Positions 25,251-40,113 of a stretch of 56,735 nt of DNA are shown here, piece after piece. The stretch comes from an uncultured Anaerolineales bacterium. GTDB lineage: Bacteria > Chloroflexota > Anaerolineae > B4-G1. The stretch is from contig CAZZEX010000021.1 of NCBI GenBank assembly GCA_964653285.1, forward strand, positions 1 to 56,735. The letters run 5' to 3'. The notes under the pieces were generated by a model. That model was not told where the DNA came from. It saw nothing but the letters and a program-made list of their open reading frames with translations, and made no database searches. The translations under genes and the position numbers were made by a program. Every line of letters begins with the position of its first letter. Position 1 is the first letter of the stretch.

Positions 25251-25332
25251 ATTTTTGCCCTTCGCTCAATCCACCAACTTCCAATCATTATACCATCGGA
25301 GGTCAGGGAACGGAAATTCTGGAGGTGTCACC

Positions 25333-27579: not shown

Positions 27580-29274
27580 ATGGAAATCTTGCCGGAAATC
27601 TTGAACGACATATCAATCCTTGTGACGGTTGTGGTCGGGGGCACGGTGGCCACCGTCGCTTTTCTTGGGCTGGCCATGTTCTCGCGGCGCGACGGATTGA
27701 TGGTATTAACGATACGCCTCATCGTAGGGGCGTTCTGCGCCCTCGTCTACCTCGGGCTGGCAATGAGATTCTCGCTCAGCGGCCCGATGGTCGTCTTCTT
27801 GAGCGCCCTGATTGCGGAACCGCTACAAATTCCGCTCTCGTACGTTTGGATGCCCACCAATAAGTGGTTTCGGCGGTGGGTACCCTGCGTCGTGTGGCTT
27901 TATCTCTGGGTCACGGCTCTCATTGGCTGGCGATCCGGATGGCTGGGGCTGCTGATCGTCACGCTGCCGGCGCTCCTCATCGCCGGGCTAGGGCTCTTCT
28001 TTGTGGCCGGCTATCTTTTGCCCTTCCCGAAGCAAGACCTATACCGGGGCAAGCATCCTGCGCCCGGCGCAAGGGGCATACCGACTTTCGGTCAGGAGAT
28101 TCGGGATTTTCTTGATCTCCTTCGCTATCCCCAAAATCGGGAAGCCCGGAAGCAATGTATCGAACAGCGCCGGAAGGCCCTCCAGTGTCTCCTGACGTAT
28201 ACGCTGGGGACGAACCGCCCTTACTACGTCGTCATAGACGAAAAGATCGCAGAACGCGCTGAGGGTACCACTACCTGGTTGACAGAGGAGGAGAAACTGA
28301 TTCAGCGGGTGGATGGCGCTATCTTTGGAGAGTTCCTGGCGGGTCCAGGTATTGTCCTCACTGGCTGCGACCAGGCCGTCGCCATCTCCACTGGCCAGAA
28401 GTTCAAAGGGGCCAAAGGCCCCGGCATCGTCTTCACCGGCTACACTGACCTTCCCGCGCACGTCGTTGACCTGCGAGTGCAGTTATGTGCCTTCCCGGTG
28501 GAGGCCTGGACAAAGGATGGCATCGCCATTAGAGTCACTACGTTCATCCCGTTCCAGATCGGCACAGGCAAAGAAGAACCGGCCCTGGGGCAGGGGTTCC
28601 CCTATCGTTCCAGCGACGTCTTCAAGGCGGTACACGCGCAACTGATGGAGCACGTGGACCCGTCCCAGGTGCCGGAGAGTCTGGAGGAGCAGAAGTGGTA
28701 CGATCTGCCCCGTCTGGCCGGCGAGCGCATCGTGCGCGAGATTATCTCCCGCTACGAGTTCGACGAGCTCTACACGCCATTTGAGTTGCACACAGACCTC
28801 GGCCAGGATCCCCGTTCCAGGATCGGCAAAGAAATGCGAGAGGAACTGAACCAGACACTGCCAGGTTGGGGTATCCAATGCATAGGCTGTGGCATCGGTA
28901 ACATAGTGCCGGTGGACGAGCGCGTGATCGAACAGCGTATCGAGGCCTGGAGGACCGACTGGGCGCGCAAGATCATGCTTCAACAGGCTGCGGGCCAGGC
29001 CAGGCGGCTACGCCTGGTGGAGCAGGCGCGGGCGCAGGCACAGATTGACATCGTCTTGGCTGTCGGCAGACGCCTGGAGCGACTGCGAGCCGCCGGGGGC
29101 CCTGTTCCATTGGACGCCATTGTGCTCTATTTCGTCGAGGTGCTGGAAGAGTTGGCCGGAAGGTCGGCGTTGCGCAAGCTCCTCCCAGGAGATATGGACA
29201 CCATTATACAGCGTGCACGCGGGGCGATCGGAAGGGGGCCAGCCGGCGCGGAGGGGGAACAGACCAATGCGTAG
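27580..29274 (+). CDS. SPFH/band-7 (flotillin-like) domain membrane protein with multi-TM N-terminus, paralog 1.
   Basis: ...GPGIVFTGYTDLPAHVVDLRVQLCAFPVEAWTKDGIAIRVTTFIPFQI... SPFH core. C-terminal coiled-coil (RRLRLVEQARAQAQIDIVLAV). Confidence 0.7.
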   Translation: MEILPEILNDISILVTVVVGGTVATVAFLGLAMFSRRDGLMVLTIRLIVGAFCALVYLGLAMRFSLSGPMVVFLSALIAEPLQIPLSYVWMPTNKWFRRWVPCVVWLYLWVTALIGWRSGWLGLLIVTLPALLIAGLGLFFVAGYLLPFPKQDLYRGKHPAPGARGIPTFGQEIRDFLDLLRYPQNREARKQCIEQRRKALQCLLTYTLGTNRPYYVVIDEKIAERAEGTTTWLTEEEKLIQRVDGAIFGEFLAGPGIVLTGCDQAVAISTGQKFKGAKGPGIVFTGYTDLPAHVVDLRVQLCAFPVEAWTKDGIAIRVTTFIPFQIGTGKEEPALGQGFPYRSSDVFKAVHAQLMEHVDPSQVPESLEEQKWYDLPRLAGERIVREIISRYEFDELYTPFELHTDLGQDPRSRIGKEMREELNQTLPGWGIQCIGCGIGNIVPVDERVIEQRIEAWRTDWARKIMLQQAAGQARRLRLVEQARAQAQIDIVLAVGRRLERLRAAGGPVPLDAIVLYFVEVLEELAGRSALRKLLPGDMDTIIQRARGAIGRGPAGAEGEQTNA

Positions 29275-30697
29275 GAAAGTTGAGTCCCAGTACTTCAAGC
29301 GTCTGTCTGTACTTCTGCTGCTGGTTGCACTGGTGTTCCTCCTCGGTGGCCAAGCGGAATTTCACCGTCGCCAGATAGACCTGACGGCGTTGGACGTCAG
29401 AGCCATAGCCATTTTGATGGTCAGCCTGCTCCCCGCTGCTGTACTCAACTCGCTCCCGGCATTTGTGGCGCTGGTTGCCATCCCGTGGCTGGCCTCGCGT
29501 TTCATCTACACTCTCTACGACCCGAAGAACCTAAAGGAAGCCCACGAGTTCTTGCACCGTAACGTGTTTGGCATGGCGACGCTTAGGCCAATTCTGATCG
29601 TGAAAGAAGGGCACATCGCCGTTGGCGCGGGCAGCCTGTGCGACCGTATCGGTGGCCGCGGTTTCATGGTGGTCCACAACGACAGCGCGGTGGTGTTGGA
29701 AAAGGGGGGGCGTCTGACCCGTGTCGTGGGGGGGCCTTCTTTGGGTTTTCTTGAACGCTTCGAGCGGGTCTGGGAGGTCGTCGACCTGCGCCGTCAGCGC
29801 TGGCTCCTCACTGTTAACGGGATGACCAAGGAGGGCATCCCCATCGCCTGCCAGGCCGACATCACCTTCAAGATTGACGACCGGTTTGTTGATCAATGGG
29901 AAGATATGCAGCAAACGCTACCAGTCGAGACAGAGATCCAGCCATTCACGGATGCAGCGATCGCCGCGGAACTGGAGAAGGCCGGAATAGCGAAACCCCT
30001 CCCCTACACGGAGGAGGCGGTGTTCAAGGCAGCCACGAGCATCTGGGTCCGCGTCCGCCAACCGGACCATAAAGAGCAACTGAGGAAGTGGACGGGGCGG
30101 GTGGTGATTGGCGAGGTGGAAGGCACCTTGCGCTCCATCCTGGCCCGCTACCGGCTCGACTGGCTCATGCGGCCGTCCCAGCCGGGGCAAAAGCATCCCC
30201 GGGAGGAGATACGGGGGCTGTTGGAGCAAGCACTGCGCGATGCGTTTCCGGTGGGCAACCCCATCGGCGCCCGGATTCTCCACGTGGGCCTGGGGCGGAT
30301 TGACGTGAAGGACGAGAGGATCTCCACCCAATGGGTCAAAGCCTGGCAGGCCGGGTGGGAGCAGAGAGCGGTGGAGGGCCGGGCGGAGGGAGAGGCGGAG
30401 ATGGCGCGCCTGCAGGCGGCTCAGGTGCGGGCGCAGGCGGAGATGGCCCTGGCCCTCACAGAGGCGATCCGGCCGCTCGTTACCAGCGTAGAGGAATTCC
30501 CCTCCTACCTGCTCGCTATGCAGTTTATCGAGACCCTGCGGTGGATGGCCTACGACCCGTGGAAGCGGGTCTTCCTACCACCCGAGGCACTGCGGACGCT
30601 CGACGAACTGGAGAAGATGATGGATAAGGCGGGTGTATCTCCGGACGAGACCCGCTCGGAGATCAGACGGCTGCTGGCAGAAGCGAGAGAGACATGA
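29267..30697 (+). CDS. SPFH/band-7 domain membrane protein, paralog 2.
   Basis: ...GRGFMVVHNDSAVVLEKGGRLTRVVGGPSLGFLERFERVWEVVDLRRQRWLLTVNGMTKEGIPIACQADITFKI... is collinear with paralog 1. EA-rich coiled coil. ATG 29267 overlaps the upstream stop by 8 bp. The table ORF starts earlier at 29045. Confidence 0.7.
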   Translation: MRRKVESQYFKRLSVLLLLVALVFLLGGQAEFHRRQIDLTALDVRAIAILMVSLLPAAVLNSLPAFVALVAIPWLASRFIYTLYDPKNLKEAHEFLHRNVFGMATLRPILIVKEGHIAVGAGSLCDRIGGRGFMVVHNDSAVVLEKGGRLTRVVGGPSLGFLERFERVWEVVDLRRQRWLLTVNGMTKEGIPIACQADITFKIDDRFVDQWEDMQQTLPVETEIQPFTDAAIAAELEKAGIAKPLPYTEEAVFKAATSIWVRVRQPDHKEQLRKWTGRVVIGEVEGTLRSILARYRLDWLMRPSQPGQKHPREEIRGLLEQALRDAFPVGNPIGARILHVGLGRIDVKDERISTQWVKAWQAGWEQRAVEGRAEGEAEMARLQAAQVRAQAEMALALTEAIRPLVTSVEEFPSYLLAMQFIETLRWMAYDPWKRVFLPPEALRTLDELEKMMDKAGVSPDETRSEIRRLLAEARET

Positions 30698-30764: not shown

Positions 30765-31769
30765 TTGGCCATCGGAGGGAATATGATCAATTTGCCATCT
30801 ACACTAACCCCGTCCGCATTGCTTCGCCGCGAGGAACTACCACCATTCGTTGACGAACTGCTGCGAGGCTCCCGCTCGTTGCGCAGGGAGGGCAGGTTGC
30901 CGGAGGCCGAGCGGTGTGCGTTGGATGTCATAGAGGCCAGCCAGGAACCGGGCACCAACGTCAGCCAGGCGGTGGCCCTGATCCATCTGGCGGACGTGCA
31001 TCGTGAGATGGGCAAACTGAGACCGGCGCTGGTCGATTGTCAGAAGGCCTATCCCATCTTCCAACGCCAGCCGTCCCGCGATCAACGCCATAACGAGGCG
31101 GTAGCCGCCTATGCCCTCGGACTGGCGCACCAACTGCTCGGCAGCGAGATGGACGCGCTGAGGTGGTACCAGGAGGCGGCTCAACTGTTTGAGAGGGCCA
31201 GGGAGGACTGGGCCGCCGTCAATGCCCTGGCCCAGGTGGAGACCTGCACCCGCATCCGACGCTGGATGGAGACACTGAGCGAATACCTGACCGCTGCCCG
31301 GACCCGCAGCACGGATGCGAACCTCGGCACTGGCGTCTGGGTGCCCGTCGTTCCCTCGGACGGCGACGGAGGTGAGTTCGCCATAGTAGAGCTGAGGATA
31401 GACCAGTACAGGTTAGAGCGGGAAGCGACGGTCAACGGGGAATCGTTCCGTGTACACCCCCTGAGGGGAACCCGACGCATCTCCCTGGTGCCTGGCGTCG
31501 AGTATTATGCCTTGCAGGTTCCCGATGAAGCGCGCGGGCCTTTAGGCGCTGGCGAGGGAGACTATGCGCTGGTAGTTCGGAAGAAGGACGCAGATCGAGA
31601 GGGCCCCGGCGTGCTGGAGACACTCAGTGGGCCAGAGTTTGGCCATTTCGAGCGCGACGATGAAGGCAATATCAACTTTATTCGTCCTGATGCCCAGGTG
31701 ATCGGCGGCAAGGACATCGGCGAGGATTTCCAGGTCGGGTACATCAACGCACTGCTGAAGCCAACGTAG
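30765..31769 (+). CDS. Hypothetical protein with a TPR-like helical N-terminal half and a beta-rich C-terminal domain (possibly a degenerate LexA/S24-like fold).
   Basis: Helical repeats (AVALIHLADVHREMGK..., AYALGLAHQLLGSEMDALRWYQEAAQLFE). C-terminal GDYALVVRKKDA...GNINFIRPD recalls the S24 beta-barrel but lacks the Ser of the Ser-Lys dyad. Confidence 0.5.
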   Translation: MAIGGNMINLPSTLTPSALLRREELPPFVDELLRGSRSLRREGRLPEAERCALDVIEASQEPGTNVSQAVALIHLADVHREMGKLRPALVDCQKAYPIFQRQPSRDQRHNEAVAAYALGLAHQLLGSEMDALRWYQEAAQLFERAREDWAAVNALAQVETCTRIRRWMETLSEYLTAARTRSTDANLGTGVWVPVVPSDGDGGEFAIVELRIDQYRLEREATVNGESFRVHPLRGTRRISLVPGVEYYALQVPDEARGPLGAGEGDYALVVRKKDADREGPGVLETLSGPEFGHFERDDEGNINFIRPDAQVIGGKDIGEDFQVGYINALLKPT

Positions 31770-31874: not shown

Positions 31875-31903
31875 TTGCACACTTCAAAGAGATGTGCTAT
31901 GCT
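31875..31903 (+). promoter_or_regulatory. Candidate promoter TTGCAC-17-TGcTATGCT upstream of the AlaRS-like gene.
   Basis: -35 TTGCAC 31875-31880, -10 TATGCT 31898-31903 with extended TG. RBS GAGAGGG 9 nt before ATG 31949. Confidence 0.4.
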
Positions 31904-31948
31904 ATAAATGCCTCTGTTCTGCGCACAGTTAAATGAGAGGGCCTCGGC

Positions 31949-33286
31949 ATGAACTCCATTGAGATTCGGCGGCGCTTCGTGGACTACTACGAAGGACATG
32001 GGTTTCACCTGCTCTCTCGTGCTCCCATGCTCCATCCCTCAATCCCCATGTCTTTTGTGATGAGCGCCGGTCTGGTTCAGGTGGAAACTTCGCTGGCCCG
32101 GGCAGAGGAAAGGCATGGCGATCAGTTCGTCCTCGTGCAAGAGTGTTTCCGCCACTTCGATCTCGACAAGGTGGGTACTGATGGCACTCACCTTAGTCTG
32201 TTTGAGATGCCTGGAGCATTCGTTTTCGGGCCAAACGGAAAAGCAGAAACTGTTCGGCGAATGTGGATACTGGCAACCTCGGTCTTAGGGATAGATAAGA
32301 GCCGCATCTGGGTCTCGTACTTCAAGGGTGGAAAGATGTTGGGCGATTACCTGCCGGGTGACGAGGTGACACGCCAGGCATGGGTCAAGGTGGGGATGCC
32401 TGAGAACCGGATTGTCGGGTTAGTGGACGACAACTATTGGGTGCAAGGCGGTGGTATTGATGGGATGGAGACGCCCCGAAAAGCCGGCCCAAACACAGAG
32501 TTGTTCTACGACAGAGGGGTCGAGAGAGCATGTGGGCCAGATTGTAGACCGGGCTGCAAGTGTGGGCGTTTTGTAGAGTTCTCCAACTCCCTGTTCATCT
32601 GCCGCGAACAGGATTCACAGAGCAGGTCTCTCCGCCCGATGGCGGAACCCTTCTCCGAAACTGTCATTGGCACTGAGCGAGTGGCGATGATATTGCAGGG
32701 CACTCAATCGGTGTTTGACACAGATACCTACCGACCGATCATCACGGCTGTGCATGGTTTCGTTCGCGCACCTGACCTGCCAGAACCGTTGCTCACCGCA
32801 AGCGAACGAGTGATAGCCGATTATCTCAAGGCACTCTACTTCCTGGTGGCAGATGGCGCTCCTCCGCCAGGTAAAAACGGGCGAGAGCGCATCATCAAGA
32901 TATTGATTCGAGGTGTGATAGCGCGGCAGGTCATCCTGGGCATTCAATCCAAGGAGTTTCTGCCCACACTGATAGATTGCATTTCCCAGACGGTTCACAG
33001 CAGTTTGCGAGCGACGCCGGAGGAAGAGAGGCGACTGGTGTCCTACTTCTCAACCGAGTCACAGCGTTTCTCAAAGACCATTGAGCGTGGACGTCGCCAA
33101 CTACTGCGGTTCCTGAAAGAGAACGATGGACGCACGCTTTCTGGCCCGCAGATTGTCTGTCTGGAAAAGAAGTGGGGCCTGCCACGCCTTCTAACTGCCG
33201 CAATGTTGCGGGAGAAGGGATTGGTGTTTACGGAAGCGGAGTACGGAGAGGCGTTGGAGGTCTGGAAGCAGCAGCCCCATAACTGA
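31949..33286 (+). CDS. Stand-alone alanyl-tRNA-synthetase catalytic-core paralog (class II core plus tRNA-recognition helical domain, no editing or C-Ala domains). 445 aa.
   Basis: Collinear with the AlaRS N-terminus: IRRRFVDYYEGHGFH, motif-2-like CFRHFDLDKVGTDGTHLSLFEMPGAFVFG, ELFYDRG, FVEFSNSLF, RVIADYLKALYFLVADGAPPPGKNGRERII. Ends about 440 aa where the AlaRS editing domain would start. Confidence 0.8.
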   Translation: MNSIEIRRRFVDYYEGHGFHLLSRAPMLHPSIPMSFVMSAGLVQVETSLARAEERHGDQFVLVQECFRHFDLDKVGTDGTHLSLFEMPGAFVFGPNGKAETVRRMWILATSVLGIDKSRIWVSYFKGGKMLGDYLPGDEVTRQAWVKVGMPENRIVGLVDDNYWVQGGGIDGMETPRKAGPNTELFYDRGVERACGPDCRPGCKCGRFVEFSNSLFICREQDSQSRSLRPMAEPFSETVIGTERVAMILQGTQSVFDTDTYRPIITAVHGFVRAPDLPEPLLTASERVIADYLKALYFLVADGAPPPGKNGRERIIKILIRGVIARQVILGIQSKEFLPTLIDCISQTVHSSLRATPEEERRLVSYFSTESQRFSKTIERGRRQLLRFLKENDGRTLSGPQIVCLEKKWGLPRLLTAAMLREKGLVFTEAEYGEALEVWKQQPHN

Positions 33287-33437
33287 ATCTGCATACCTGG
33301 GAATCGTGTGCCGCAACTACATTGGTGGCCCGTTTCACTAATCCGCAACAGTGCTGTAACTCAAACGAAATCCAAAGAATGTTGACTCTGAGTTATACTA
33401 ATGCTGAGGACATAAGGATGGCGAGGAGAGTGACCCA

Positions 33438-36400
33438 ATGACCATCTCTCAAGAACTTGACAGAAAACAGTTCTTTCAACCGGTGGTGGAAACCATCAGT
33501 CTGACCCTGAGAATGCCGGCCTGCATCTGGCTTGCTGATGAGACTGGAGAAGCCCTCTGGATTGCCGCAGCTACGGAGGAGTTATCAGATGATTACATCC
33601 GCAAGGCGGTCTTGCGCCTGGATGAACCCAGCGTTGCGTCCGAAGTGGTTGCAGAACGCAAAACGGTCGTTGTGACAGACATTGCCTCCGATGACCGCTG
33701 GAAGTACAAGCCCGAAGCCGCTGACATGGGGTTGAAATCGGCTATGGTGGTACCATTGCAAGTCAAAAACAAGATCGTGGGCGTGCTTGATGTCTATGCC
33801 GACGAAGTAAGAGATTTCAGCGATTCCGAGAAGGCGCTGATTGAGGGCTTCGCCACCCAGATAGCCATCACGCAGCGTCGGATTCGGGATTTGGCGGTTT
33901 TGAACGAAGTGAGCCTGCTAATCAATTCCGAGTTACGCCCCTCCGATCTTTTCAAACGCATTGTGCAAGCCGCAGAAAGGGTGCTGGATTGTCAGCACGT
34001 CAGCATATTCCTGGTGGATAAGAGCGGTGACCTGGTGTTGGAGACCGCCTCGTCAGCAGGCATCGCACGACAGCGGTTCGCCCAAGGGGTCGGGTTGGCC
34101 GGGTGGGTAGCTAAAACCAAGCGCTCAGAACTCGTCCCGGATGCAGTCAAGCACCCCCAGTTTGTCCCCGGTCTGTCGTCAGAACTCATCAAGCGCTCGA
34201 TGTTGCTGTCGCCTATGCTCTTCAAGGACAAGGCTATTGGCGTGATCTCGGCTGATATGGACGGCCTGGGCGGCTTCAATGAGCATGATCAGATGTTACT
34301 GGAGGCATTGGCAAGTCAAGCCGCCGTGGCTGTACGCAATGCGAGATTGTTTGAGCAGCGGGAATTGCTTCGAGAGATCGCTCGGGACGTCACCAAGGTG
34401 CGAGGAACAGAAGAACTTCTGGAGGAGATATTAAGACGCTCCTTGACTTTGCTTGATTGTGAGGTTGGTTCGATTGCCCTGTTGAATGAGACTACCGGTG
34501 AACTGGAGTTTCGCTATGCGATTGGCAAGTCCGTCGGGATCTGCCTTCCGGTTGATAAGGGGCTCATGACTGCGGCGGCCCGAGAGCGTAGGCCGGTGCG
34601 AATCGGGGACGTTACGAAGGATAAGAGGTATGTTTGTCACGTAGACTCAACGCGCTCTGAACTAGACATGCCCTTGCTGGCACGTGGGAAGGCGATCGGA
34701 GTGCTAAACTTCGAGAGTCCATACTACAATGCCTTTGATGAGGACGATGAGATGTTGGCTCATGCATTGGCCGACCATGCAGCAATCGCCCTCTACAATG
34801 CACAGCAAGGTGAGCGGCTAAGTACGCTAGTCAAAGTAGGGCAAGATTTGACCTCCGAAATCCATTTGGAACGGGATGAGATACTAGAGTTGATCTACGA
34901 ACAAGCCCGCAGACTAACGGGTACTCAAGACATGTACATCGCCCTGTACGACGATGAGTCGAACAGAATCCGCTTTGGGTTGGCAATGGAAGATGGAAAA
35001 CGAGTAGAAGTAGGTGTAGGCGGATGGTCTCCCCGTGAAGCCGATCTGGAAAAAAGAGGGAAGACGGAAGAGATCATCCTGATCAAAGAGCCAATCCTGC
35101 ACAGGACGCTGGACGAATCGACAAAGTGGTATGAGGAGCCTGGACACAAGGAATTCCTCGGTCGAGTCGCTACATCTTGGATGGGTGTTCCCATGGTTCT
35201 AGGGGACAGGGTTCTAGGCGTGATCGCCATCTACGATTGGGAGCGCGAGTACGCCTACGACGAGCAGGATCTGCAGGTCATATCCTCTATGGCCAGCCAA
35301 GCCGCGATTGCTTTGGATAATGCAGATCTATACCATCGGCGTCTCAAGGGTCTGGATGCGCTGAACCAGGTGGGACAGGTCCTTAGTTCCAGTGTTTGGC
35401 TGGAGCAAACGGAGATACTAGAGTTGATCTACGAACAAGCCCGCAGACTAACGGGTACTCAAGACATGTACATCGCCCTGTACGACGATGAGTCGAACAG
35501 AATCCGCTTTGGGTTGGCAATGGAAGATGGAAAACGAGTAGAAGTAGGTGTAGGCGGATGGTCTCCCCGTGAAGCCGATCTGGAAAAAAGAGGGAAGACG
35601 GAAGAGATCATCCTGATCAAAGAGCCAATCCTGCACAGGACGCTGGACGAATCGACAAAGTGGTATGAGGAGCCTGGACACAAGGAATTCCTCGGTCGAG
35701 TCGCTACATCTTGGATGGGTGTTCCCATGGTTCTAGGGGACAGGGTTCTAGGCGTGATCGCCATCTACGATTGGGAGCGCGAGTACGCCTACGACGAGCA
35801 GGATCTGCAGGTCATATCCTCTATGGCCAATCAGGCGGCAATCGCGCTGAACAATGCAGCTTTGTACCAGCAGGTGGAGACAGTGCGGAGCGTTGCCAAC
35901 GCCATCACTACAGAGTTGGACCCGCAAGCCTGTATGGAACGTATTCTTGACGAGACGATGAAGCTATTGGGTGTCCATTACGCTACCATTCAATTGGTAG
36001 ACAAGGCGACCGATGAACTGGTCATACGTGCACAGAGAGGCGTAGAAGGGAGGATACTGGCACCTGATCTATACAGAATCAAGATAGGCGAAGGAATCAC
36101 AGGTGTAGCAGCCCAGGGTAAGCGGACGATTAGAGTGGGCAACGTGGACGATGTCGGGTACTATCTGGATTACATTGAGGGCACGCGCTCAGAAATGGCA
36201 ACGCCGTTGATCCAGCGTGGGGAAGTGATCGGTGTGCTTAACGTAGAGGATCCAAGAGAAAATGTTTTTGATCAAGACGACGAAGATTTATTCGAACTGC
36301 TGGCGGAGGAAGTAGTGGTCGCGATCCAGAATGCTGCGCTCTTTGAAGAAAAGGATCAAGCTCTAAGGTCGCTGCGGGAGGAGCAAAGGAAAAGCAGGGC

Positions 36401-37085
36401 TGCCGAACGTTTAGCAGCAGTAAACACCGTAGCGGCAGGGTTTGTGCATAGAATGAACAATGTTGCTGGCACGATACCGGTGCGTGTTGGGCAAATCAAA
36501 GAACTGTTGGATCCAGGCGATCCGAAATATTCCAAGATTGCCCATTTTCTGGGTGCTATAAACAGGGATGTCGATGGCATCCTCAGAACCGCGAAGACTA
36601 TTAGGTCATCCACCGAAGCCACGGAACCTCTCGAGCTGGTAAATGTTGCTCTTCTGGTTTCCAGTGCAATCGAAAGAATCGCATTACCCACGGGCATAAC
36701 AGTCTGCAACCAGTGCGAGCAGGATCTGCCCGACGTGCTTGTTTTCAGCGGTAAGCTCATAGATGCTCTAGAGAACCTTATTCGAAATGGCATTGAAGCC
36801 ATTAAAGGGTCGGGTTCAGTTACTATAGCATGCAGAACATCGGTGAAAGAGGATCAGGAGTGGGTAGCCATTGAGATAGAGGATACAGGCCGTGGCATTT
36901 CTTCCGAGGATTTGCCCAGGATCTTTGACCTGTTCTTTTCCACCAAGGGTGGAATGGGCTTTGGCCTTTGGGGAGCCAGAACGCTTGTCGAGAGCCTGGG
37001 GGGCAGGATTGACGTATCAAGTGAGTTCGGTAAAGGTACGACTTTCACGATCCTTCTACCGGTGGAGAAGGAGGCGCAGAGATGA
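33438..37085 (+). CDS. Cytoplasmic multi-GAF sensor histidine kinase (about 6 GAF domains plus HisKA plus HATPase_c).
   Basis: Repeated GAF signatures. H-box ...AAGFVHRMNNVAGTIP.... ATP-lid/G-boxes IEDTGRGIS, GGMGFGLW. No TM segments. Confidence 0.9.
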   Translation: MTISQELDRKQFFQPVVETISLTLRMPACIWLADETGEALWIAAATEELSDDYIRKAVLRLDEPSVASEVVAERKTVVVTDIASDDRWKYKPEAADMGLKSAMVVPLQVKNKIVGVLDVYADEVRDFSDSEKALIEGFATQIAITQRRIRDLAVLNEVSLLINSELRPSDLFKRIVQAAERVLDCQHVSIFLVDKSGDLVLETASSAGIARQRFAQGVGLAGWVAKTKRSELVPDAVKHPQFVPGLSSELIKRSMLLSPMLFKDKAIGVISADMDGLGGFNEHDQMLLEALASQAAVAVRNARLFEQRELLREIARDVTKVRGTEELLEEILRRSLTLLDCEVGSIALLNETTGELEFRYAIGKSVGICLPVDKGLMTAAARERRPVRIGDVTKDKRYVCHVDSTRSELDMPLLARGKAIGVLNFESPYYNAFDEDDEMLAHALADHAAIALYNAQQGERLSTLVKVGQDLTSEIHLERDEILELIYEQARRLTGTQDMYIALYDDESNRIRFGLAMEDGKRVEVGVGGWSPREADLEKRGKTEEIILIKEPILHRTLDESTKWYEEPGHKEFLGRVATSWMGVPMVLGDRVLGVIAIYDWEREYAYDEQDLQVISSMASQAAIALDNADLYHRRLKGLDALNQVGQVLSSSVWLEQTEILELIYEQARRLTGTQDMYIALYDDESNRIRFGLAMEDGKRVEVGVGGWSPREADLEKRGKTEEIILIKEPILHRTLDESTKWYEEPGHKEFLGRVATSWMGVPMVLGDRVLGVIAIYDWEREYAYDEQDLQVISSMANQAAIALNNAALYQQVETVRSVANAITTELDPQACMERILDETMKLLGVHYATIQLVDKATDELVIRAQRGVEGRILAPDLYRIKIGEGITGVAAQGKRTIRVGNVDDVGYYLDYIEGTRSEMATPLIQRGEVIGVLNVEDPRENVFDQDDEDLFELLAEEVVVAIQNAALFEEKDQALRSLREEQRKSRAAERLAAVNTVAAGFVHRMNNVAGTIPVRVGQIKELLDPGDPKYSKIAHFLGAINRDVDGILRTAKTIRSSTEATEPLELVNVALLVSSAIERIALPTGITVCNQCEQDLPDVLVFSGKLIDALENLIRNGIEAIKGSGSVTIACRTSVKEDQEWVAIEIEDTGRGISSEDLPRIFDLFFSTKGGMGFGLWGARTLVESLGGRIDVSSEFGKGTTFTILLPVEKEAQR
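34877..35828. repeat. Perfect 418-bp direct repeat with 534-bp period (34877-35294 equals 35411-35828), an in-frame duplication of one GAF domain inside the kinase gene.
   Basis: Identical antisense ORFs are reported at 34914/35448 and 34925/35459. Aligning the two copies shows divergence only after ..ATGGCCA (SSMASQ vs SSMANQ). Confidence 0.9.
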
Positions 37086-37471
37086 GCGACAGACGCATTC
37101 CCCGTATCCTGGTCGTGGACAGCGAGCCCAAGTGGAGTCAAGCGGTAAAAGCCACTTTGGAAGAACATGGGAAGTACTACGTTGTAAATGTCGGTGATAG
37201 TGAGACTGCTTTGAAATCTTCCTATGGTGACGGCTTTGACCTCATCCTCATCAATGCTACCCTTGCCCTTGGAGAGAACATGCCCAAGTTCGAGGAGATA
37301 GTGCGTCTATACGCAGATAAGGTACTGGTCATTTCCGACGTGCGTTCGATATCAACGGCCATAAAAGTGTTTAAGATGGGAGCGGACTATGCAGAGAAGC
37401 CGTTCGAGCCAAGACGAGTCATAGATCTGGTAGCGAGTCGCTTGCAGCAGGCATACGGAACTGCGAGCTAG
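37082..37471 (+). CDS. Single-domain receiver (REC) protein, likely a pseudo-receiver (phospho-acceptor Asp replaced by Asn).
   Basis: ILVVDSEPKW...FDLILIN(ATLALGE)NMP...VLVISD...EKPF. T/S and K are conserved; D57-equivalent reads N and D13-equivalent reads S. Start overlaps the HK stop (ATGA). Confidence 0.7.
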   Translation: MSDRRIPRILVVDSEPKWSQAVKATLEEHGKYYVVNVGDSETALKSSYGDGFDLILINATLALGENMPKFEEIVRLYADKVLVISDVRSISTAIKVFKMGADYAEKPFEPRRVIDLVASRLQQAYGTAS

Positions 37472-37494
37472 CGTCACACGAGGAGGAGAGTAAA

Positions 37495-38352
37495 ATGGAG
37501 ACCTTACCCCAAGACCGTCCACGCGTGCTCATTGTGGATGATCAACCGAACTGGCGGGAAGCGTTGTGCGAATTACTGGATCCCACCAAGTACGAGATTG
37601 AGACAGCAGCCAGCTACGATGAGGCCAAGCGTAAACTACGGCAACGCGCCTTCCACGTACTGGTGGCTGACCAGAGGCTGGTGGACGCTCAGGTGAACAA
37701 CATACAAGGCATCCTTTTGTTGGACGAAGTGAACAAGCTTCGGGATGGAACCCAGGCCATCATCGTGACAGGTTATCCGTCAATCGAGGCGGCCAAGGAT
37801 GCACTGAAGGGGCGTGCTGCCTACGACTACATATTTAAGTCCCCGGAAGAGAGTGAGCCGCCATTCAATATCCAGTACCGGGAACGGGTTAAAGAAGCCA
37901 CCGAGGAGGCGGAGCTGGAGCGACAGAAGGCAATTACGTTGGGCTTTTCAGTGTCGTCACTGATCGCGGGCTTAACTTATGAGCGAATTGCTGAAACCTT
38001 GTTCCCCGCAGGCACGGTGTCCCAAGATTTGCTGGAGGGTGTTAAGAGAGTGCTACATAGGCTACTTTACCCGCTCCAGCCCTTGGCGCGTCAGATGGGT
38101 AGAGTTTGGCTGTCGGAGTCAGATCAAACATGTGAGGTTCTTTGTTGGAGTAGAAATCGCGGCAAAGCAGCTTTGATCAGGATCGGTAGAGAAAGACTCT
38201 CGTTAGACGACCGTAAACCCGAATGGCTTAAGGAGAGTTGGCGTTCGATTAAGGACGAGCAGTTCGCGTCCGTTCCACTTGTAGGAATCTCGTACACGAT
38301 TGATGATATGATGTTTGAGGACTTCGTAGCTTTGGTTAAGGAAGAAGATTAG
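37495..38352 (+). CDS. Receiver domain protein with a roughly 150-aa uncharacterised C-terminal domain (no HTH).
   Basis: VLIVDDQPNWREAL...HVLVADQRL...IIVTGYPS...IFKSP. The C-terminus is unassigned. Confidence 0.7.
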   Translation: METLPQDRPRVLIVDDQPNWREALCELLDPTKYEIETAASYDEAKRKLRQRAFHVLVADQRLVDAQVNNIQGILLLDEVNKLRDGTQAIIVTGYPSIEAAKDALKGRAAYDYIFKSPEESEPPFNIQYRERVKEATEEAELERQKAITLGFSVSSLIAGLTYERIAETLFPAGTVSQDLLEGVKRVLHRLLYPLQPLARQMGRVWLSESDQTCEVLCWSRNRGKAALIRIGRERLSLDDRKPEWLKESWRSIKDEQFASVPLVGISYTIDDMMFEDFVALVKEED

Positions 38353-38353
38353 T

Positions 38354-39358
38354 ATGGGACCGAAGCCGAAGAAGCGCATACTGGTGATAGAGGATCAACC
38401 TAATTGGCAGGACCTAATTGGTGAATTGATCCAGGAAGTCGCTGATGAGATTGGATGCGCAATCGAAGTGGTGATCGCGACTCGCTTTGTGGAGGCATTG
38501 AAGAGCATCGCGGCAACGTTCTACGACTGTGTTACTGTTGACAACGCTCTCCCGGATGGCAAGATGGCAAGGGCGCTAATCGATCGTATCGGGAATCTTG
38601 GCTACAGAGTTCCAGTTGTCGTTGTAAGCGGACAGGTGAAACCAAGCGACGTTGGAGATTTCTTCCAGGACTACAGAATTGACGGGTTCTTTTGGAAGGG
38701 AGAAGATTTCGAGCCGAAGAAATTCAAAAACACACTTGCAAGGCTACTCGCGCCTGTCAAGAAAGGTGAGGAACTGCAAGGACTGCAGCGCAAGGAAAGA
38801 GGAGACAGACTTATGGACTGGAACACAATCATTAGCCTGGCTGTATCCGCTGTGTCACCGTACGCCGTCGCATTTGCGACGAGCGCCGCAACTGTCGCTG
38901 GAAAGGAGCTGGTCGAGACAGCTTCCGAAAGTATTAAAAGGCTGTGGCAATGGATTAATCAGACTATCAGCAAAAGCAATGATAAGTCCGCTAGGAAAGT
39001 ATGGGAGGGCTTCAAGAAGGATCCCCGTAGCAACAAGGATGCTTTGGTTGACGCCATCTGGCGGCTGAGTCCAGATGATGATACGGTTCTGCGCGGATAT
39101 GTGCGGGGGCTCATTCAGGAAGTGCAACTCCGAAAAGGCGCACTGTTGTTTTCTTTGCTTGACAATCCCGACTATTACACCTTCAACGATCTGAAGCGTA
39201 TCTGCAGTCGAGTTAGCCCGCAATGGGAAGGCGAGACAGGGCCCCCGACGCGTGAGGGCTTGGCACGCTGGGTCGTCACCTATGTTCCAACAAGGAACAG
39301 ACAGCAAGATTTGATTGCAGCCATGCTGGAAGTGAATCCAACCGTAATGCTGCAATAG
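38354..39358 (+). CDS. Receiver domain protein with a helical middle region and a C-terminal module resembling an effector-associated (EAD/death-like) domain.
   Basis: ILVIEDQPNWQDL...CVTVDNALPDG...VVVVSGQ...FFWKGEDF. C-terminal ...YTFNDLKRICSRV...GETGPPTREGLARWVVTYVPTRNRQQDLIAAMLEVNPT fits the F..eL..lC...G......r.kA.eLV.y.e..r.....L...L pattern of EAD-type adaptor domains. Confidence 0.65.
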   Translation: MGPKPKKRILVIEDQPNWQDLIGELIQEVADEIGCAIEVVIATRFVEALKSIAATFYDCVTVDNALPDGKMARALIDRIGNLGYRVPVVVVSGQVKPSDVGDFFQDYRIDGFFWKGEDFEPKKFKNTLARLLAPVKKGEELQGLQRKERGDRLMDWNTIISLAVSAVSPYAVAFATSAATVAGKELVETASESIKRLWQWINQTISKSNDKSARKVWEGFKKDPRSNKDALVDAIWRLSPDDDTVLRGYVRGLIQEVQLRKGALLFSLLDNPDYYTFNDLKRICSRVSPQWEGETGPPTREGLARWVVTYVPTRNRQQDLIAAMLEVNPTVMLQ

Positions 39359-39450
39359 CCTGGACGCATAAGGCGCGGATAGGCTGGCTATCACCGCTAC
39401 CTCCGCGCCTTCTTTCGCGTTGACTGTCCCCACAGAATCGGATCGCTGCT

Positions 39451-40113
39451 ATGACCCAAGACATCATCGCCCTCCTAACCGCCTTCGCCTACGTCTTCGC
39501 CATGATCGGCGTCGCCGAGGCACTCCGCAAGTGGCGCGGCTACTCGGTCGAGTTCACGCGCAAGTTCATCCACATCGCGGTCGGCATGTGGGCCTACGGG
39601 ACGGTGCTGCTGTTCGAGCACCGCACCTTCGCCATCATCCCGCCGCTGGCGTTCGTCGCCATCAACGGTTTCTCCTACTGGCGCGGGACGTTCAAGGCCA
39701 TGGAGACCGGGGAAAAGGGACAGTTGGGCACCGTCTACTTCCCCATCTCGTTCGTCGTGCTCATCTGGCTGCTGTGGGACCGCCCGCATTTGCTGGTGGC
39801 GAGCCTGATGCCGATGACCTGGGGGGATGCACTGGCCGCCGTGGTGGGACGGCGCATCGGCCAACGGCGCTACACTGTCGCTGGAAGCACCCGCTCGCTG
39901 GAGGGGTCGGTGGTGCTGTTCCTCATCAGTTGGGCGGCGACGCTCGTGCCACTTATGCTGCTGGCTCCGGAGCCCATTAACCCGGCCGCCGCAGTGGGAA
40001 CCGCGGCCGTGACGGCACTGGGCGCAGTGGTCGTCGAGGCGGTCTCGCCGTGGGGCATTGATAATCTGACCGTGCCAGCAGTCTCAGCGCTGGTGCTGGT
40101 GTGGATGTTGTAG
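39451..40113 (+). CDS. Polyprenol/phytol-kinase-like membrane protein (DGK1/SEC59/VTE5, CTP-dependent kinase family).
   Basis: Polytopic protein with FTRKFIHIAVGMWAY and C-terminal ...RSLEGS...TALGAVVVEAVSPWGIDNLTVP, typical of the phosphatidate-cytidylyltransferase-like kinase family. Confidence 0.65.
   Translation: MTQDIIALLTAFAYVFAMIGVAEALRKWRGYSVEFTRKFIHIAVGMWAYGTVLLFEHRTFAIIPPLAFVAINGFSYWRGTFKAMETGEKGQLGTVYFPISFVVLIWLLWDRPHLLVASLMPMTWGDALAAVVGRRIGQRRYTVAGSTRSLEGSVVLFLISWAATLVPLMLLAPEPINPAAAVGTAAVTALGAVVVEAVSPWGIDNLTVPAVSALVLVWML

What the first reader, a model, noticed from the sequence alone, without database searches (positions are those of the whole stretch)
31875..33286. Stand-alone AlaRS catalytic-core paralog with a divergent alanine pocket, sitting in front of a signalling cluster
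The 445-aa protein is collinear with the aminoacylation core and tRNA-recognition helical domain of alanyl-tRNA synthetase, then stops exactly where the editing domain would begin. A 445-aa gene cannot be the housekeeping alaS. The residue that aligns with the Asp binding the alanine alpha-amino group (DTGMGLER in E. coli) reads TVIGTER here, and the GNFSFG loop reads GAFVFG, which suggests a changed or lost amino-acid specificity. The gene has its own promoter-like TTGCAC-17-TGcTATGCT and precedes a cytoplasmic GAF kinase and three receiver proteins. Truncated aaRS paralogs elsewhere act as amino-acid:carrier-protein ligases, biosynthetic enzymes or regulators. This one is uncharacterised.
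Basis: partly seen in the sequence, partly recalled or inferred. Interest (0 to 1): 0.7.

Follow-up and report, generated by a model that had tools for sequence, protein, structure and literature searches.

The report
AlaRS-derived input module of a kinase cassette
This short alanyl-tRNA-synthetase look-alike is not a translation enzyme: it is the conserved first gene (in some organisms the fused N-terminus) of a histidine-kinase cassette whose outputs are mostly protease, TIR, Schlafen and similar 'cell-suicide' domains, so a tRNA-charging enzyme seems to have been recruited as the input of a bacterial defence or cell-death switch.

Summary
The ORF is real (31949-33286, +, 445 aa). It has the AlaRS aminoacylation and tRNA-recognition domains and nothing else (Pfam E 5e-65; AF2 pLDDT 91.6; TM 0.79 to E. 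coli AlaRS 3HXU). It belongs to a monophyletic family, here called AlaL. AlaL keeps every ATP/adenylate-site residue. It invariantly replaces the alanine-pocket residues (D235E, G237V, V214L, N95A, W211 to a small residue) and both G3:U70 readers (N303 and D400, now G/K and K).

The main result is context. In about 31 of 35 loci from Chloroflexota, filamentous cyanobacteria, Saprospiraceae and Methylococcaceae the order is AlaL, GAF histidine kinase, stand-alone receiver(s), receiver-effector proteins. Upstream genes vary. Effectors swap: CHAT, caspase, TIR, Schlafen/AlbA_2, APH/TCAD9, PNP. Only 1 of 106 partners has a DNA-binding output. Natural fusions exist (AlaL-GAFn-HK and AlaL-AlaL-GAF-HK). 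The cassette is usually GC-poorer than its flanks.

Best reading: AlaL is the ATP-binding input module of a Detocs-like two-component conflict or cell-death system. Its ligand (small acid, adenylate or RNA acceptor end) is unknown. I found no prior description. Whether a canonical alaS coexists in these genomes could not be checked.

The parts
31875..31948 (+). It is weak and not statistically supported.
   Evidence: Sequence read. 7 of 12 consensus matches. Not reported by the scan; the region has 4 sites against 5.3 expected by chance. No Rfam family such as a T-box.
31949..33286 (+). AlaL: a 445-aa AlaRS-derived protein (aminoacylation domain, about aa 1-250, plus helical tRNA-recognition-type domain, about aa 251-445). 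No editing or C-Ala domain.
   Evidence: AF2 pLDDT 91.6. Foldseek 3HXU TM 0.79. Family of at least 120 proteins at 58% identity or more. Monophyletic signature clade.
32150..32680 (+). Active-site codons. Retained ATP/adenylate site: R68 (32150), D71, F85, W164, E184, E210 (32576), N213, G241, E243, R244 (32678). Family-specific pocket changes: A90 (32216; N95 in E. coli), L215 (32591; V214), E237 (32657; D235), V239 (32663; G237).
   Evidence: Column statistics over 99 close members and over 50 family against 75 canonical modules. Coordinates.
32870..33169 (+). Positions equivalent to the G3:U70-reading residues of AlaRS: G308/K309 (32870-32875; E. coli N303) and K407 (33167-33169; E. coli D400). 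They lie within invariant basic motifs GAPPPGKxGRxR..K and LEKxxGxP.
   Evidence: The role of N303 and D400 is taken from PMC10036535.
33438..37085 (+). Cytoplasmic sensor histidine kinase: six GAF domains, an H-box FVH(1004)RMNN (His codon at 36447) and HATPase_c (aa 1107-1210). It is the conserved partner of AlaL and is fused to it in other organisms.
   Evidence: Conserved adjacency. Fusions P0129, P0131, P0122, P0123.
34878..35829 (+). Two exactly identical 418-nt segments (34878-35295 and 35412-35829, 534 nt apart) inside the kinase gene, i.e. a very recent duplication or gene conversion of a GAF unit.
   Evidence: The same arrangement is seen in two independent assemblies (L001, L002).
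37082..37471 (+). RR1: stand-alone receiver-fold protein whose phospho-acceptor Asp is replaced by Asn (a pseudo-receiver). It overlaps the kinase stop codon by 4 nt.
   Evidence: Pfam Response_reg. Alignment to CheY gives D57 to N. The same position is S or N in 12 other loci.
37495..38352 (+). RR2: receiver with an intact acceptor Asp plus a C-terminal domain of about 150 aa that matches no family. It occupies the slot that REC-Schlafen/AlbA_2 or REC-TIR proteins occupy in sister loci.
   Evidence: Its REC is the same lineage as that of the REC-Schlafen proteins (hhalign probability 98.9%).
38354..39358 (+). RR3: receiver, then a conserved hydrophobic stretch (about aa 158-176), a helical region and a conserved C-terminal domain of about 60 aa with weak EAD7-like similarity.
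   Evidence: EAD7 E 0.16 here and 0.12 in the L016 orthologue. Hydropathy. No second copy of the domain in the window.

Best explanation
AlaL is the input (sensor or signal-handling) subunit of a two-component cassette built like the anti-phage system Detocs.

Proposed mechanism:
1. AlaL keeps the class II ATP/adenylate site and the AlaRS helical RNA-binding domain. Its alanine pocket and G3:U70-reading residues have been re-specified. It therefore binds ATP plus a ligand that is not the alanine/tRNA-Ala pair: a different small carboxylate, an aminoacyl-adenylate-like molecule, or an RNA acceptor end.
2. Ligand occupancy or turnover is passed to the GAF-array histidine kinase. The two proteins contact each other when separate and are one chain in the natural fusions.
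3. The kinase autophosphorylates on His1004.
4. The phosphoryl group goes to receiver domains fused to effector domains: CHAT or caspase proteases, TIR, Schlafen/AlbA_2, APH/TCAD9 or PNP in other genomes, and two unassigned domains in this window. Stand-alone receivers and pseudo-receivers buffer or gate the signal.
5. The output is enzymatic self-damage or proteolysis, not transcription.

Shown here: the fold, the residue pattern, the conserved gene order, the fusions and the effector repertoire. Inferred: ligand binding, the direction of signalling, and the defence or cell-death role.
For: Not a housekeeping enzyme. The alaS equivalog model TIGR00344 scores 214 bits against a cutoff of 457. 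In 50 family modules against 75 canonical ones: D235 is E 50/50 against D 75/75, G237 is V 49/50 against G 75/75, V214 is L 45/50 against V 75/75, N95 is A 47/50, W211 is a smaller residue (S, A, L or G in 43 of 50), and N303 and D400 are replaced. The signature proteins form one clade with no canonical member inside it.

Still a functional nucleotide-binding module. R69, D76, F90, M92, W170, E183, E209, G239, E241 and R242 are invariant. The AlaRS fold is predicted with confidence.

Coupled to the kinase. The order AlaL, GAF-HK, REC proteins holds in about 31 of 35 loci from four phyla, while upstream genes differ. Intergenic gaps are often -3 to +16 bp. Fusions AlaL-GAFx4-HATPase_c (P0129, found on 6 contigs with the same downstream REC set) and AlaL-AlaL-GAF-HATPase_c (P0122, P0123) place AlaL at the N-terminal, input end of the kinase.

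Conflict-type output. Of 106 downstream partners, 76 have a REC domain. Fused or adjacent domains are CHAT 15, TCAD9 8, APH 7, Schlafen/AlbA_2 4, caspase 2, TIR 2, Trypco1 2, EAD7 2 and HD-CE 1. A DNA-binding output occurs once. A PNP_UDP_1 protein follows one fusion.

Architectural parallel. Detocs has a kinase, a buffer REC and a REC-effector with swappable effectors. The cassette is GC-poorer than its flanks in 21 of 24 loci, including this window (0.537 against 0.625), and it is taxonomically patchy, with 46 loci found among 185,579 species genomes.
Against: No experiment exists for any member. PADLOC models hit none of the core window proteins (AlaL, kinase, RR2, RR3); the only hits are marginal ones to RR1 and the TPR neighbour. 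The window's own two effector domains are unidentified, so the cell-suicide output is extrapolated from sister loci. Fusion to the N-terminus fits a sensor equally well as an enzyme that makes the ligand for the adjacent GAF domain. Strict conservation of the whole catalytic site argues for chemistry and not only binding. CHAT or caspase receivers could serve developmental proteolysis in filamentous bacteria and not defence. Coexistence with a canonical alaS in the same genomes was not verified.
Confidence: 0.55

Rival explanations
1. AlaL is a signal-producing enzyme. It adenylates a small acid and releases a nucleotide product (an acyl-adenylate-derived compound or an Ap4A-type dinucleotide). 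The GAF domains of the neighbouring kinase bind that product, as a cyclase and its sensor are paired in CBASS or type III CRISPR systems.
For: All ATP, Mg and adenylate ligands are invariant while the side-chain pocket is re-specified. GAF domains are small-molecule and nucleotide binders (established knowledge). In the fusion P0129 the Pfam matches place AlaL at residues 6-464 and the first GAF at 473-612, so the two are directly adjacent. Canonical AlaRS already adenylates the non-amino-acid lactate (PMC12143591).
Against: The number of GAF domains varies from 1 to more than 6, which is unexpected for a dedicated receptor of one product. The whole RNA-recognition-type helical domain, with invariant basic motifs, is retained, and a small-molecule synthase would not need it. 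No product is known.
Confidence: 0.2
2. AlaL is an acyl or aminoacyl transferase that modifies a macromolecule or metabolite. It could use Ala-tRNA as donor, as AcmF does, or transfer its own adenylate to a protein lysine, as in the AlaRS lactyltransferase activity. The target might be the kinase or a receiver.
For: AcmF is the one characterised truncated AlaRS-like enzyme. It has the same two-domain architecture and the same Asp-to-Glu change at the alanine-binding position (PMC12945691). AlaRS can acylate proteins through lactyl-AMP. Pseudo-receivers that lack the acceptor Asp are conserved next to the kinase and could be targets.
Against: AcmF also has N-to-Q and has lost most ATP-binding residues, whereas AlaL keeps N212 (47 of 50) and the full ATP site. 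No clade member shows N212Q. No nucleoside-antibiotic or other biosynthetic genes, and no second AlaRS, lie in any of the loci.
Confidence: 0.12
3. AlaL is a working mini-AlaRS: a second, editing-free or inhibitor-resistant alanyl-tRNA synthetase, or one half of a split enzyme. It merely shares an operon with signalling genes.
For: E. coli N-terminal fragments and the Tupanvirus mini-AlaRS charge tRNA-Ala without editing or C-Ala domains. The viral enzyme does so without the N and D G3:U70 readers (PMC10036535). AlaL keeps the adenylation machinery.
Against: The alanine-contacting residues D235, G237 and V214 are 100% conserved in 75 canonical enzymes and replaced in essentially all AlaL. The alaS equivalog score is less than half the cutoff. 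There is no editing or C-Ala ORF nearby. AlaL is covalently fused to histidine kinases. It is rare and patchy in distribution.
Confidence: 0.04

Closest known systems
Detocs (defensive two-component system: DtcA kinase, DtcB stand-alone receiver, DtcC receiver-effector; Rousset et al., bioRxiv 10.1101/2023.01.24.525353)
   Same: A sensor histidine kinase, one or more stand-alone receiver proteins, and receiver domains fused to interchangeable cell-damaging effectors in place of DNA-binding domains. One AlaL locus is followed by a PNP_UDP_1 protein, which belongs to the broad domain family of the main Detocs effector.
   Different: The Detocs kinase senses through TPRs and has no aaRS-like partner. 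Here the kinase carries GAF arrays and is always preceded by, or fused to, AlaL. No core cassette protein matched the PADLOC models. Many first receivers here lack the acceptor Asp. No phage phenotype has been tested.
AcmF, the truncated AlaRS-like Ala-tRNA-dependent transferase of ascamycin biosynthesis (PMC12945691; ACS Catal 2024 14:3533)
   Same: Only the aminoacylation and tRNA-recognition domains are present. Asp is changed to Glu at the alanine amino-group binding position. It forms a clade distinct from canonical AlaRS.
   Different: AcmF has N-to-Q and has lost most ATP-binding residues, whereas AlaL retains both. AcmF sits in a nucleoside-antibiotic gene cluster with a second AlaRS (AcmD) and a hydrolase, whereas AlaL sits in a two-component cassette. 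Direct sequence relatedness was not tested.
GCN2 (eukaryotic eIF2-alpha kinase with a HisRS-like regulatory domain that binds uncharged tRNA); from established knowledge
   Same: A degenerate aaRS module is covalently or functionally joined to a protein kinase as its regulatory input. The AlaL-GAF-HK fusions are the bacterial counterpart in outline.
   Different: The synthetase class member differs (AlaRS, not HisRS) and so does the kinase type (histidine kinase, not Ser/Thr). AlaL is N-terminal to the kinase. AlaL keeps its catalytic ATP site. tRNA binding by AlaL is unproven.
Tupanvirus mini-AlaRS (PMC10036535)
   Same: A natural two-domain AlaRS without editing or C-Ala domains. [quoted passage not shown]
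   Different: The viral enzyme is a true AlaRS of eukaryotic type, described as having an intact catalytic domain. AlaL is a bacterial-type clade with a re-specified amino-acid pocket and a signalling context.
Canonical AlaRS acting as lactate sensor and lactyltransferase (cited in PMC12143591)
   Same: It shows that the AlaRS core can adenylate a non-amino-acid ligand and act as a metabolite sensor and protein modifier.
   Different: That is a moonlighting activity of the full-length housekeeping enzyme with an unchanged pocket. No link to histidine kinases is known.
NTP-dependent 'ternary' conflict systems of multicellular prokaryotes (Kaur, Burroughs, Iyer, Aravind; PMC7159879, PMC8195603)
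   Same: The effector and adaptor vocabulary is shared (CHAT, caspase, TIR, APH-like kinase, Trypco1, EAD7, TCAD9, receiver domains). Both are enriched in filamentous lineages.
   Different: Those systems are built around STAND, MoxR-vWA or related NTPases. The authors report no histidine kinases among them and mention no aaRS-like component.

Membership tests
Canonical alanine--tRNA ligase (alaS, TIGR00344 equivalog) | Score at or above the curated equivalog cutoff | tested here: not met
   214.1 bits against a cutoff of 457.05. PRK01584 scores 196.8 against 529.
Canonical alanine--tRNA ligase (alaS, TIGR00344 equivalog) | Four-domain architecture: aminoacylation, tRNA recognition, editing, C-Ala | tested here: not met
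   445 aa. The match ends at profile position 421 of 552 (Pfam) and 413 of 847 (TIGR00344). No editing or C-Ala ORF in the window or in the flanks of related loci.
Canonical alanine--tRNA ligase (alaS, TIGR00344 equivalog) | Alanine-pocket residues D235, G237, V214 (E. coli numbering) | tested here: not met
   They read E237, V239 and L215 in the window. E 50/50, V 49/50 and L 45/50 in the family, against D, G and V in 75 of 75 canonical sequences.
Canonical alanine--tRNA ligase (alaS, TIGR00344 equivalog) | G3:U70-reading residues N303 and D400 | tested here: not met
   G308/K309 and K407 in the window. Basic or Gly throughout the family, against N 70/75 and D 68/75 in canonical sequences. 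A caveat is that some true AlaRS also lack them.
Canonical alanine--tRNA ligase (alaS, TIGR00344 equivalog) | Class II ATP/adenylate site (motif 2 Arg, motif 3 Arg, Mg-binding Glu) and the AlaRS fold | tested here: met
   R68, E210 and R244 are invariant. Model pLDDT 91.6, TM 0.79 to 3HXU.
Canonical alanine--tRNA ligase (alaS, TIGR00344 equivalog) | It is the only or essential AlaRS of the genome | not tested
The rarity of AlaL (46 loci found among 185,579 species genomes) argues that it is accessory.
AcmF-type Ala-tRNA-dependent aminoacyl transferase | Truncated two-domain AlaRS-like architecture with Asp changed to Glu at the alanine-binding position | tested here: met
   AcmF features are taken from PMC12945691.
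AcmF-type Ala-tRNA-dependent aminoacyl transferase | N-to-Q change (N212 equivalent) and loss of most ATP-binding residues | tested here: not met
   N212 is retained in 47 of 50 and none has Q. R69, E183, E209 and R242 are invariant.
AcmF-type Ala-tRNA-dependent aminoacyl transferase | Located in a nucleoside-sulfamate biosynthetic cluster with a dedicated AlaRS (AcmD) | tested here: not met
   None of 35 loci contains a second AlaRS or biosynthetic genes. The neighbours are the kinase and receivers.
Detocs-like defensive two-component system | Operon of a histidine kinase, a stand-alone receiver and a receiver fused to a non-DNA-binding effector, with effector swapping | tested here: met
   Only 1 of 106 partners has Trans_reg_C.
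Detocs-like defensive two-component system | Sequence homology to DtcA, DtcB or DtcC | tested here: inconclusive
   No PADLOC model hit AlaL, the kinase, RR2 or RR3. I could not confirm that this PADLOC release contains Detocs models.
Detocs-like defensive two-component system | Protection against phage that depends on the kinase His and the receiver Asp | not testable with these tools
   It needs heterologous expression and phage challenge.
Kaur/Aravind NTPase-centred ternary conflict systems | A core STAND or MoxR-vWA type NTPase with EAD or TCAD adaptors | tested here: not met
   Effector and adaptor domains are shared (TCAD9, EAD7, CHAT), but the conserved core here is AlaL plus a histidine kinase. 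nSTAND1 was seen in only 1 of 106 partners. The papers report no histidine kinases in those systems.

The most novel reading that the evidence does not exclude
AlaL is a bacterial analogue of the GCN2 HisRS-like domain, wired to cell suicide. This former tRNA synthetase would monitor the state of a tRNA acceptor end (uncharged, cleaved, foreign or mis-acylated) or an aminoacyl-adenylate-like toxin. It would directly gate a histidine kinase that switches on caspase/CHAT, TIR, Schlafen or ATP-nucleosidase effectors in filamentous, multicellular bacteria. That would be a new class of immune or stress sensor that reads out the translation apparatus.
Probability: 0.3. Interest if true: 0.9.

Novelty: new variant of a known kind. 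Interest (0 to 1): 0.78.

Why it matters
aaRS paralogs are a classic source of new biochemistry; known examples include HisZ, EpmA, AsnA, cyclodipeptide synthases and AcmF. A catalytic-core AlaRS paralog that is an obligate partner of a histidine kinase, and sometimes a fused domain of it, would be a new input-domain type for two-component signalling.

It would also extend the recently discovered 'defensive two-component' logic (Detocs) to a much richer effector set: caspase/CHAT, TIR, Schlafen and PNP. These occur in Chloroflexota, cyanobacteria and Bacteroidota, lineages where cell-death systems are thought to relate to multicellularity.

It gives a concrete and testable link between the aminoacylation machinery and programmed cell death or immunity in bacteria. 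The defined residue signature (E-x-V-I-G-x-E-R, GAPPPGKxGR, LEKxxGxP) lets annotators stop mislabelling these genes as alanyl-tRNA synthetase.

Tried and rejected
1. T-box or other leader RNA. Rfam at gathering thresholds found nothing in the whole window.
2. A co-travelling tRNA or tRNA-like gene. ARAGORN found none in the window. In 28 loci it found only unrelated tRNAs more than 3 kb away in two loci.
3. Split AlaRS. tblastn with E. coli AlaRS found only the AlaL ORF in the window. The C-terminal half hit nothing in any locus.
4. Known defence system. PADLOC gave no hit for AlaL, the kinase, RR2 or RR3.
5. The 'AGGK deletion' as a family hallmark. Rejected, because most canonical AlaRS lack that segment.
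6. First structure model from 21 sequences. It was unusable in the catalytic core (pLDDT 68.5). The repeat with 99 sequences was confident.
7. Identity of the window's effector domains. The RR2 C-terminus has no Pfam or PDB match and does not match the Schlafen domain of sister proteins. The RR3 C-terminus gives only sub-threshold EAD7 hits and has no partner copy.
8. A curated name in public sources. There is none, only JGI's automatic 'alanyl-tRNA synthetase'.
9. Prior literature. Searches for AlaRS-like or paralog terms, for PF01411/tRNA-synt_2c and for conflict-system papers found AcmF and the mini-AlaRS but nothing on this cassette.
10. The sigma-70 promoter claim. Not supported.
11. Pfam on neighbouring unknown ORFs (220-aa membrane protein, 264-aa and 377-aa proteins, TPR C-terminus). 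No hits.
Full report
**1. The observation**

The window contains an ATG-initiated ORF at 31949..33286 on the + strand that encodes 445 aa. Pfam tRNA-synt_2c covers residues 5-436 against profile positions 1-421 of 552 (E 5.4e-65). The best solved relative is the 441-residue catalytic fragment of E. coli AlaRS, aligned end to end (E 2e-47).

An AlphaFold2 model built from 99 family sequences is confident (pLDDT 91.6, pTM 0.90). It superposes on 3HXU over its whole length (TM 0.79). The protein is therefore the aminoacylation plus tRNA-recognition part of AlaRS and nothing more.

The residue assignment for the alanine-binding Asp is not. D235 aligns with Glu237 and G237 with Val239 (…S-E-T-V-I-G-T-E-R…).

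The promoter-like string is physically present at 31875. It has only 7 of 12 consensus matches, and the scan finds no excess of such sites over shuffled sequence.

**2. A conserved, re-specified family, not a decaying copy**

A search of 5.8 billion proteins returned at least 120 proteins of about 445 aa with 58-100% identity. An exhaustive profile search of 1.84 billion representatives placed about 55-60 clusters (at 50% identity) above the first canonical AlaRS of about 880 aa, which appears at 264 bits.

I classified near-full-length modules by motif. The 50 signature-bearing modules form one neighbour-joining clade with no canonical sequence inside it. Mean identity is 36% within the clade and 27% to canonical sequences.

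Column statistics for 50 family modules against 75 canonical ones are clear:
- Conserved in both: R69, D76, H86, F90, M92, W170, E183, E209, N212, G239, E241, R242. This is the whole ATP/adenylate site.
- Changed in the family: D235 to E (50/50 against 0/75), G237 to V (49/50 against 0/75), V214 to L (45/50), N95 to A (47/50), W211 to a smaller residue (S, A, L or G in 43 of 50).
- The two residues that read the G3:U70 identity pair (N303 and D400; PMC10036535) become Gly/Lys and Lys, inside invariant basic motifs.

V214 and D235 contact the alanine methyl and amino groups in crystal structures (PMC12143591). The amino-acid pocket is therefore re-specified while the adenylation chemistry is preserved.

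The alaS equivalog model scores 214 bits against a cutoff of 457. A 4-residue gap after motif 2 that I first noted as distinctive turned out to be an E. coli-type insertion.

**3. Context is the key finding**

A scan of one genome per species (185,579 species) with family-specific peptide patterns gave 46 loci. Most are Chloroflexota (Anaerolineae, Caldilineaceae, Promineifilaceae). The rest are filamentous cyanobacteria (Phormidium, Leptolyngbyaceae, Spirulina), Saprospiraceae and one Methylococcaceae.

I clustered the ORFs of 35 loci that have flanks. The only neighbour family shared by 34 of 35 loci is the kinase/receiver group. Gene-by-gene maps show the order AlaL, then a GAF histidine kinase (550-2064 aa), then one or two small receivers, then one or two larger receiver proteins. 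This holds in essentially every locus with readable downstream sequence. Upstream genes are unrelated except among the closest relatives. Gaps between AlaL and the kinase are often -3 to +16 bp.

Pfam on the 106 co-directional genes downstream of the kinase found Response_reg in 76. Attached to these, instead of DNA-binding domains, were CHAT (15), TCAD9 (8), APH-like kinase (7), Schlafen/AlbA_2 (4), caspase (2), TIR (2), Trypco1 (2), EAD7 (2) and HD-CE (1). Trans_reg_C occurred once.

The small receivers are of two kinds. A canonical one ('FDLALLDxRLD') occurs in all phyla. A pseudo-receiver directly after the kinase has Ser or Asn in place of the acceptor Asp; the window's RR1 has Asn.

**4. 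Rosetta-stone fusions**

The exhaustive search recovered four kinds of fusion:
- P0129 (1718 aa): AlaL-GAFx4-HATPase_c.
- P0131: AlaL-GAFx4.
- P0122 and P0123: AlaL-AlaL-GAF-HATPase_c.
- P0121: AlaL-AlaL.

Both modules of the tandems keep the family signature. P0129 occurs on six contigs and is followed by REC, REC, REC-APH/TCAD9 and REC-CHAT. P0122 is followed by a REC protein and a PNP_UDP_1 protein.

AlaL therefore sits where sensor domains sit in histidine kinases. Its functional coupling to the kinase rests on conserved adjacency and on gene fusion, two independent lines of genomic evidence.

**5. What kind of system**

The architecture has a kinase with a sensor, a stand-alone receiver, and receiver-effector proteins with interchangeable damaging effectors. 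That is the architecture of Detocs, an experimentally validated anti-phage system in which the stand-alone receiver is proposed to buffer stray phosphorylation (bioRxiv 10.1101/2023.01.24.525353).

The effector vocabulary is that of the conflict systems of multicellular prokaryotes described by Kaur et al. Those papers mention no aaRS-like component and report no histidine kinases in their systems.

The cassette is GC-poorer than its flanks in 21 of 24 loci (mean -6.5 points). In this window it is 0.537 against 0.625. Together with the patchy distribution across phyla, this indicates horizontal mobility. No PADLOC model matches the core cassette proteins, and the searchable literature holds no description of PF01411 in such a context.

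**6. Mechanism**

The best-supported reading (about 0.55) is that AlaL is the ATP-binding input module. It binds, and possibly turns over, a ligand that is no longer the alanine/tRNA-Ala pair, and it controls the GAF kinase. The kinase then phosphorylates the receiver-effectors.

What the ligand is remains open:
- The retained helical domain with invariant Lys and Arg argues for an RNA acceptor end, as in the GCN2 HisRS-like domain.
- The intact adenylation site argues for real chemistry. This keeps alive the rival that AlaL makes a nucleotide signal for the adjacent GAF domains (about 0.2).
- It also keeps alive the rival that AlaL acylates a target, AcmF-like or lactyltransferase-like (about 0.12).

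AcmF shares the truncation and the Asp-to-Glu change. It differs in having N-to-Q, in having lost its ATP site, and in its biosynthetic context.

A housekeeping, back-up or split AlaRS is unlikely (about 0.04). However, I could not check directly that the same genomes carry a full-length alaS.

**7. This window's cassette**

The cassette is AlaL (31949-33286), the kinase (33438-37085; six GAF domains, His1004), pseudo-receiver RR1 (37082-37471), RR2 (37495-38352) and RR3 (38354-39358). No strong + strand terminator-like site separates them.

RR2's receiver is the same lineage as that of the REC-Schlafen proteins in sister loci (hhalign 98.9%), but its C-terminal domain matches nothing. RR3 has a conserved hydrophobic stretch and a conserved C-terminal domain of about 60 aa with only sub-threshold EAD7 similarity. 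The output in this particular organism is therefore unknown.

**8. Verdict**

One residue call and the promoter were wrong, and the significance lies elsewhere. This is a conserved AlaRS-derived input module of a Detocs-like two-component cassette, and I found no prior description of it. The cassette has caspase, TIR, Schlafen and PNP-type outputs. I rate it a new variant of a known kind, with interest 0.78.

Noticed in passing
window 34878-35295 and 35412-35829: Two 418-nt segments inside the GAF kinase gene are 100% identical and lie 534 nt apart, while the sequence between and around them is diverged. This suggests a very recent GAF-unit duplication or gene conversion. The same arrangement occurs in two independent metagenome assemblies. 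GAF number in cassette kinases ranges from 1 to more than 6.
   Followed up: partly
window 32000-40000: GC falls from about 0.62 to about 0.53 exactly over the AlaL, kinase and receiver block. The homologous cassette is GC-poorer than its flanks in 21 of 24 other genomes.
   Followed up: yes
window 37082-37471 (RR1): This stand-alone receiver has Asn at the phospho-acceptor position and DS in place of the DD acidic pair. In 12 other loci the first receiver after the kinase has Ser or Asn there ('FDLVIASS'). It is a conserved pseudo-receiver of unknown role.
   Followed up: partly
window 38354-39358 (RR3), about aa 158-176 and aa 275-334: A conserved hydrophobic stretch (AVSAVSPYAVAFATSAA) and a conserved C-terminal domain of about 60 aa (LLDNPDYYTFNDLKRICSR…LIAAMLEVNP) are shared only with L008 and L016. 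The EAD7 hits are sub-threshold (E 0.16 and 0.12). It may be a new adaptor or membrane-active output.
   Followed up: partly
window 27580-29274, 29267-30697, 30765-31769: Two SPFH/Band_7 proteins and a TPR protein, whose 155-aa C-terminal domain matches no Pfam family, lie directly upstream. The trio is conserved only in the closest relatives (L007-L009). Band_7 proteins also appear downstream of the cassette in L013 and L047.
   Followed up: partly
window 32531-32563 (AlaL C195, C199, C203, C205): Four invariant cysteines (C-x3-C-x3-C-x-C) lie just before the E210 strand. A similar Cys cluster is present in many canonical bacterial AlaRS (for example P0179 and P0180) but not in E. coli. It may be a metal site inherited from the ancestor.
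   Followed up: no
P0121, P0122, P0123 (metagenomic proteins): These proteins carry tandem AlaL-AlaL modules in one polypeptide, and both copies keep the family signature. This suggests AlaL works as a (pseudo)dimer.
   Followed up: partly
P0160, P0173, P0175, P0178, P0220, P0243: A more divergent, Lys/Asn-rich subgroup of about 415 aa ('PMSFNMSAG', 'ESVIGLER') shares the D235E and G237V signature. Its genomic context was not examined.
   Followed up: no
L048 8528-9839: AlaL is split into two ORFs (102 and 363 aa) in this Caldilineaceae MAG. It is a probable frameshift or pseudogene, and the adjacent kinase is reduced to 286 aa.
   Followed up: no
L053 1-4755 (minus strand): Next to the AlaL-GAF-HK fusion cassette lie a 1223-aa TCAD9 protein and a 1630-aa AAA_16 protein. 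This is a second conflict-type system, which suggests a defence-island neighbourhood.
   Followed up: no
window about 20747-25252 (minus strand): A very large (about 1500 aa) S8 subtilisin-like peptidase with CarboxypepD_reg and CLIPPER-type domains is annotated on the source contig. It is unrelated to the cassette.
   Followed up: no
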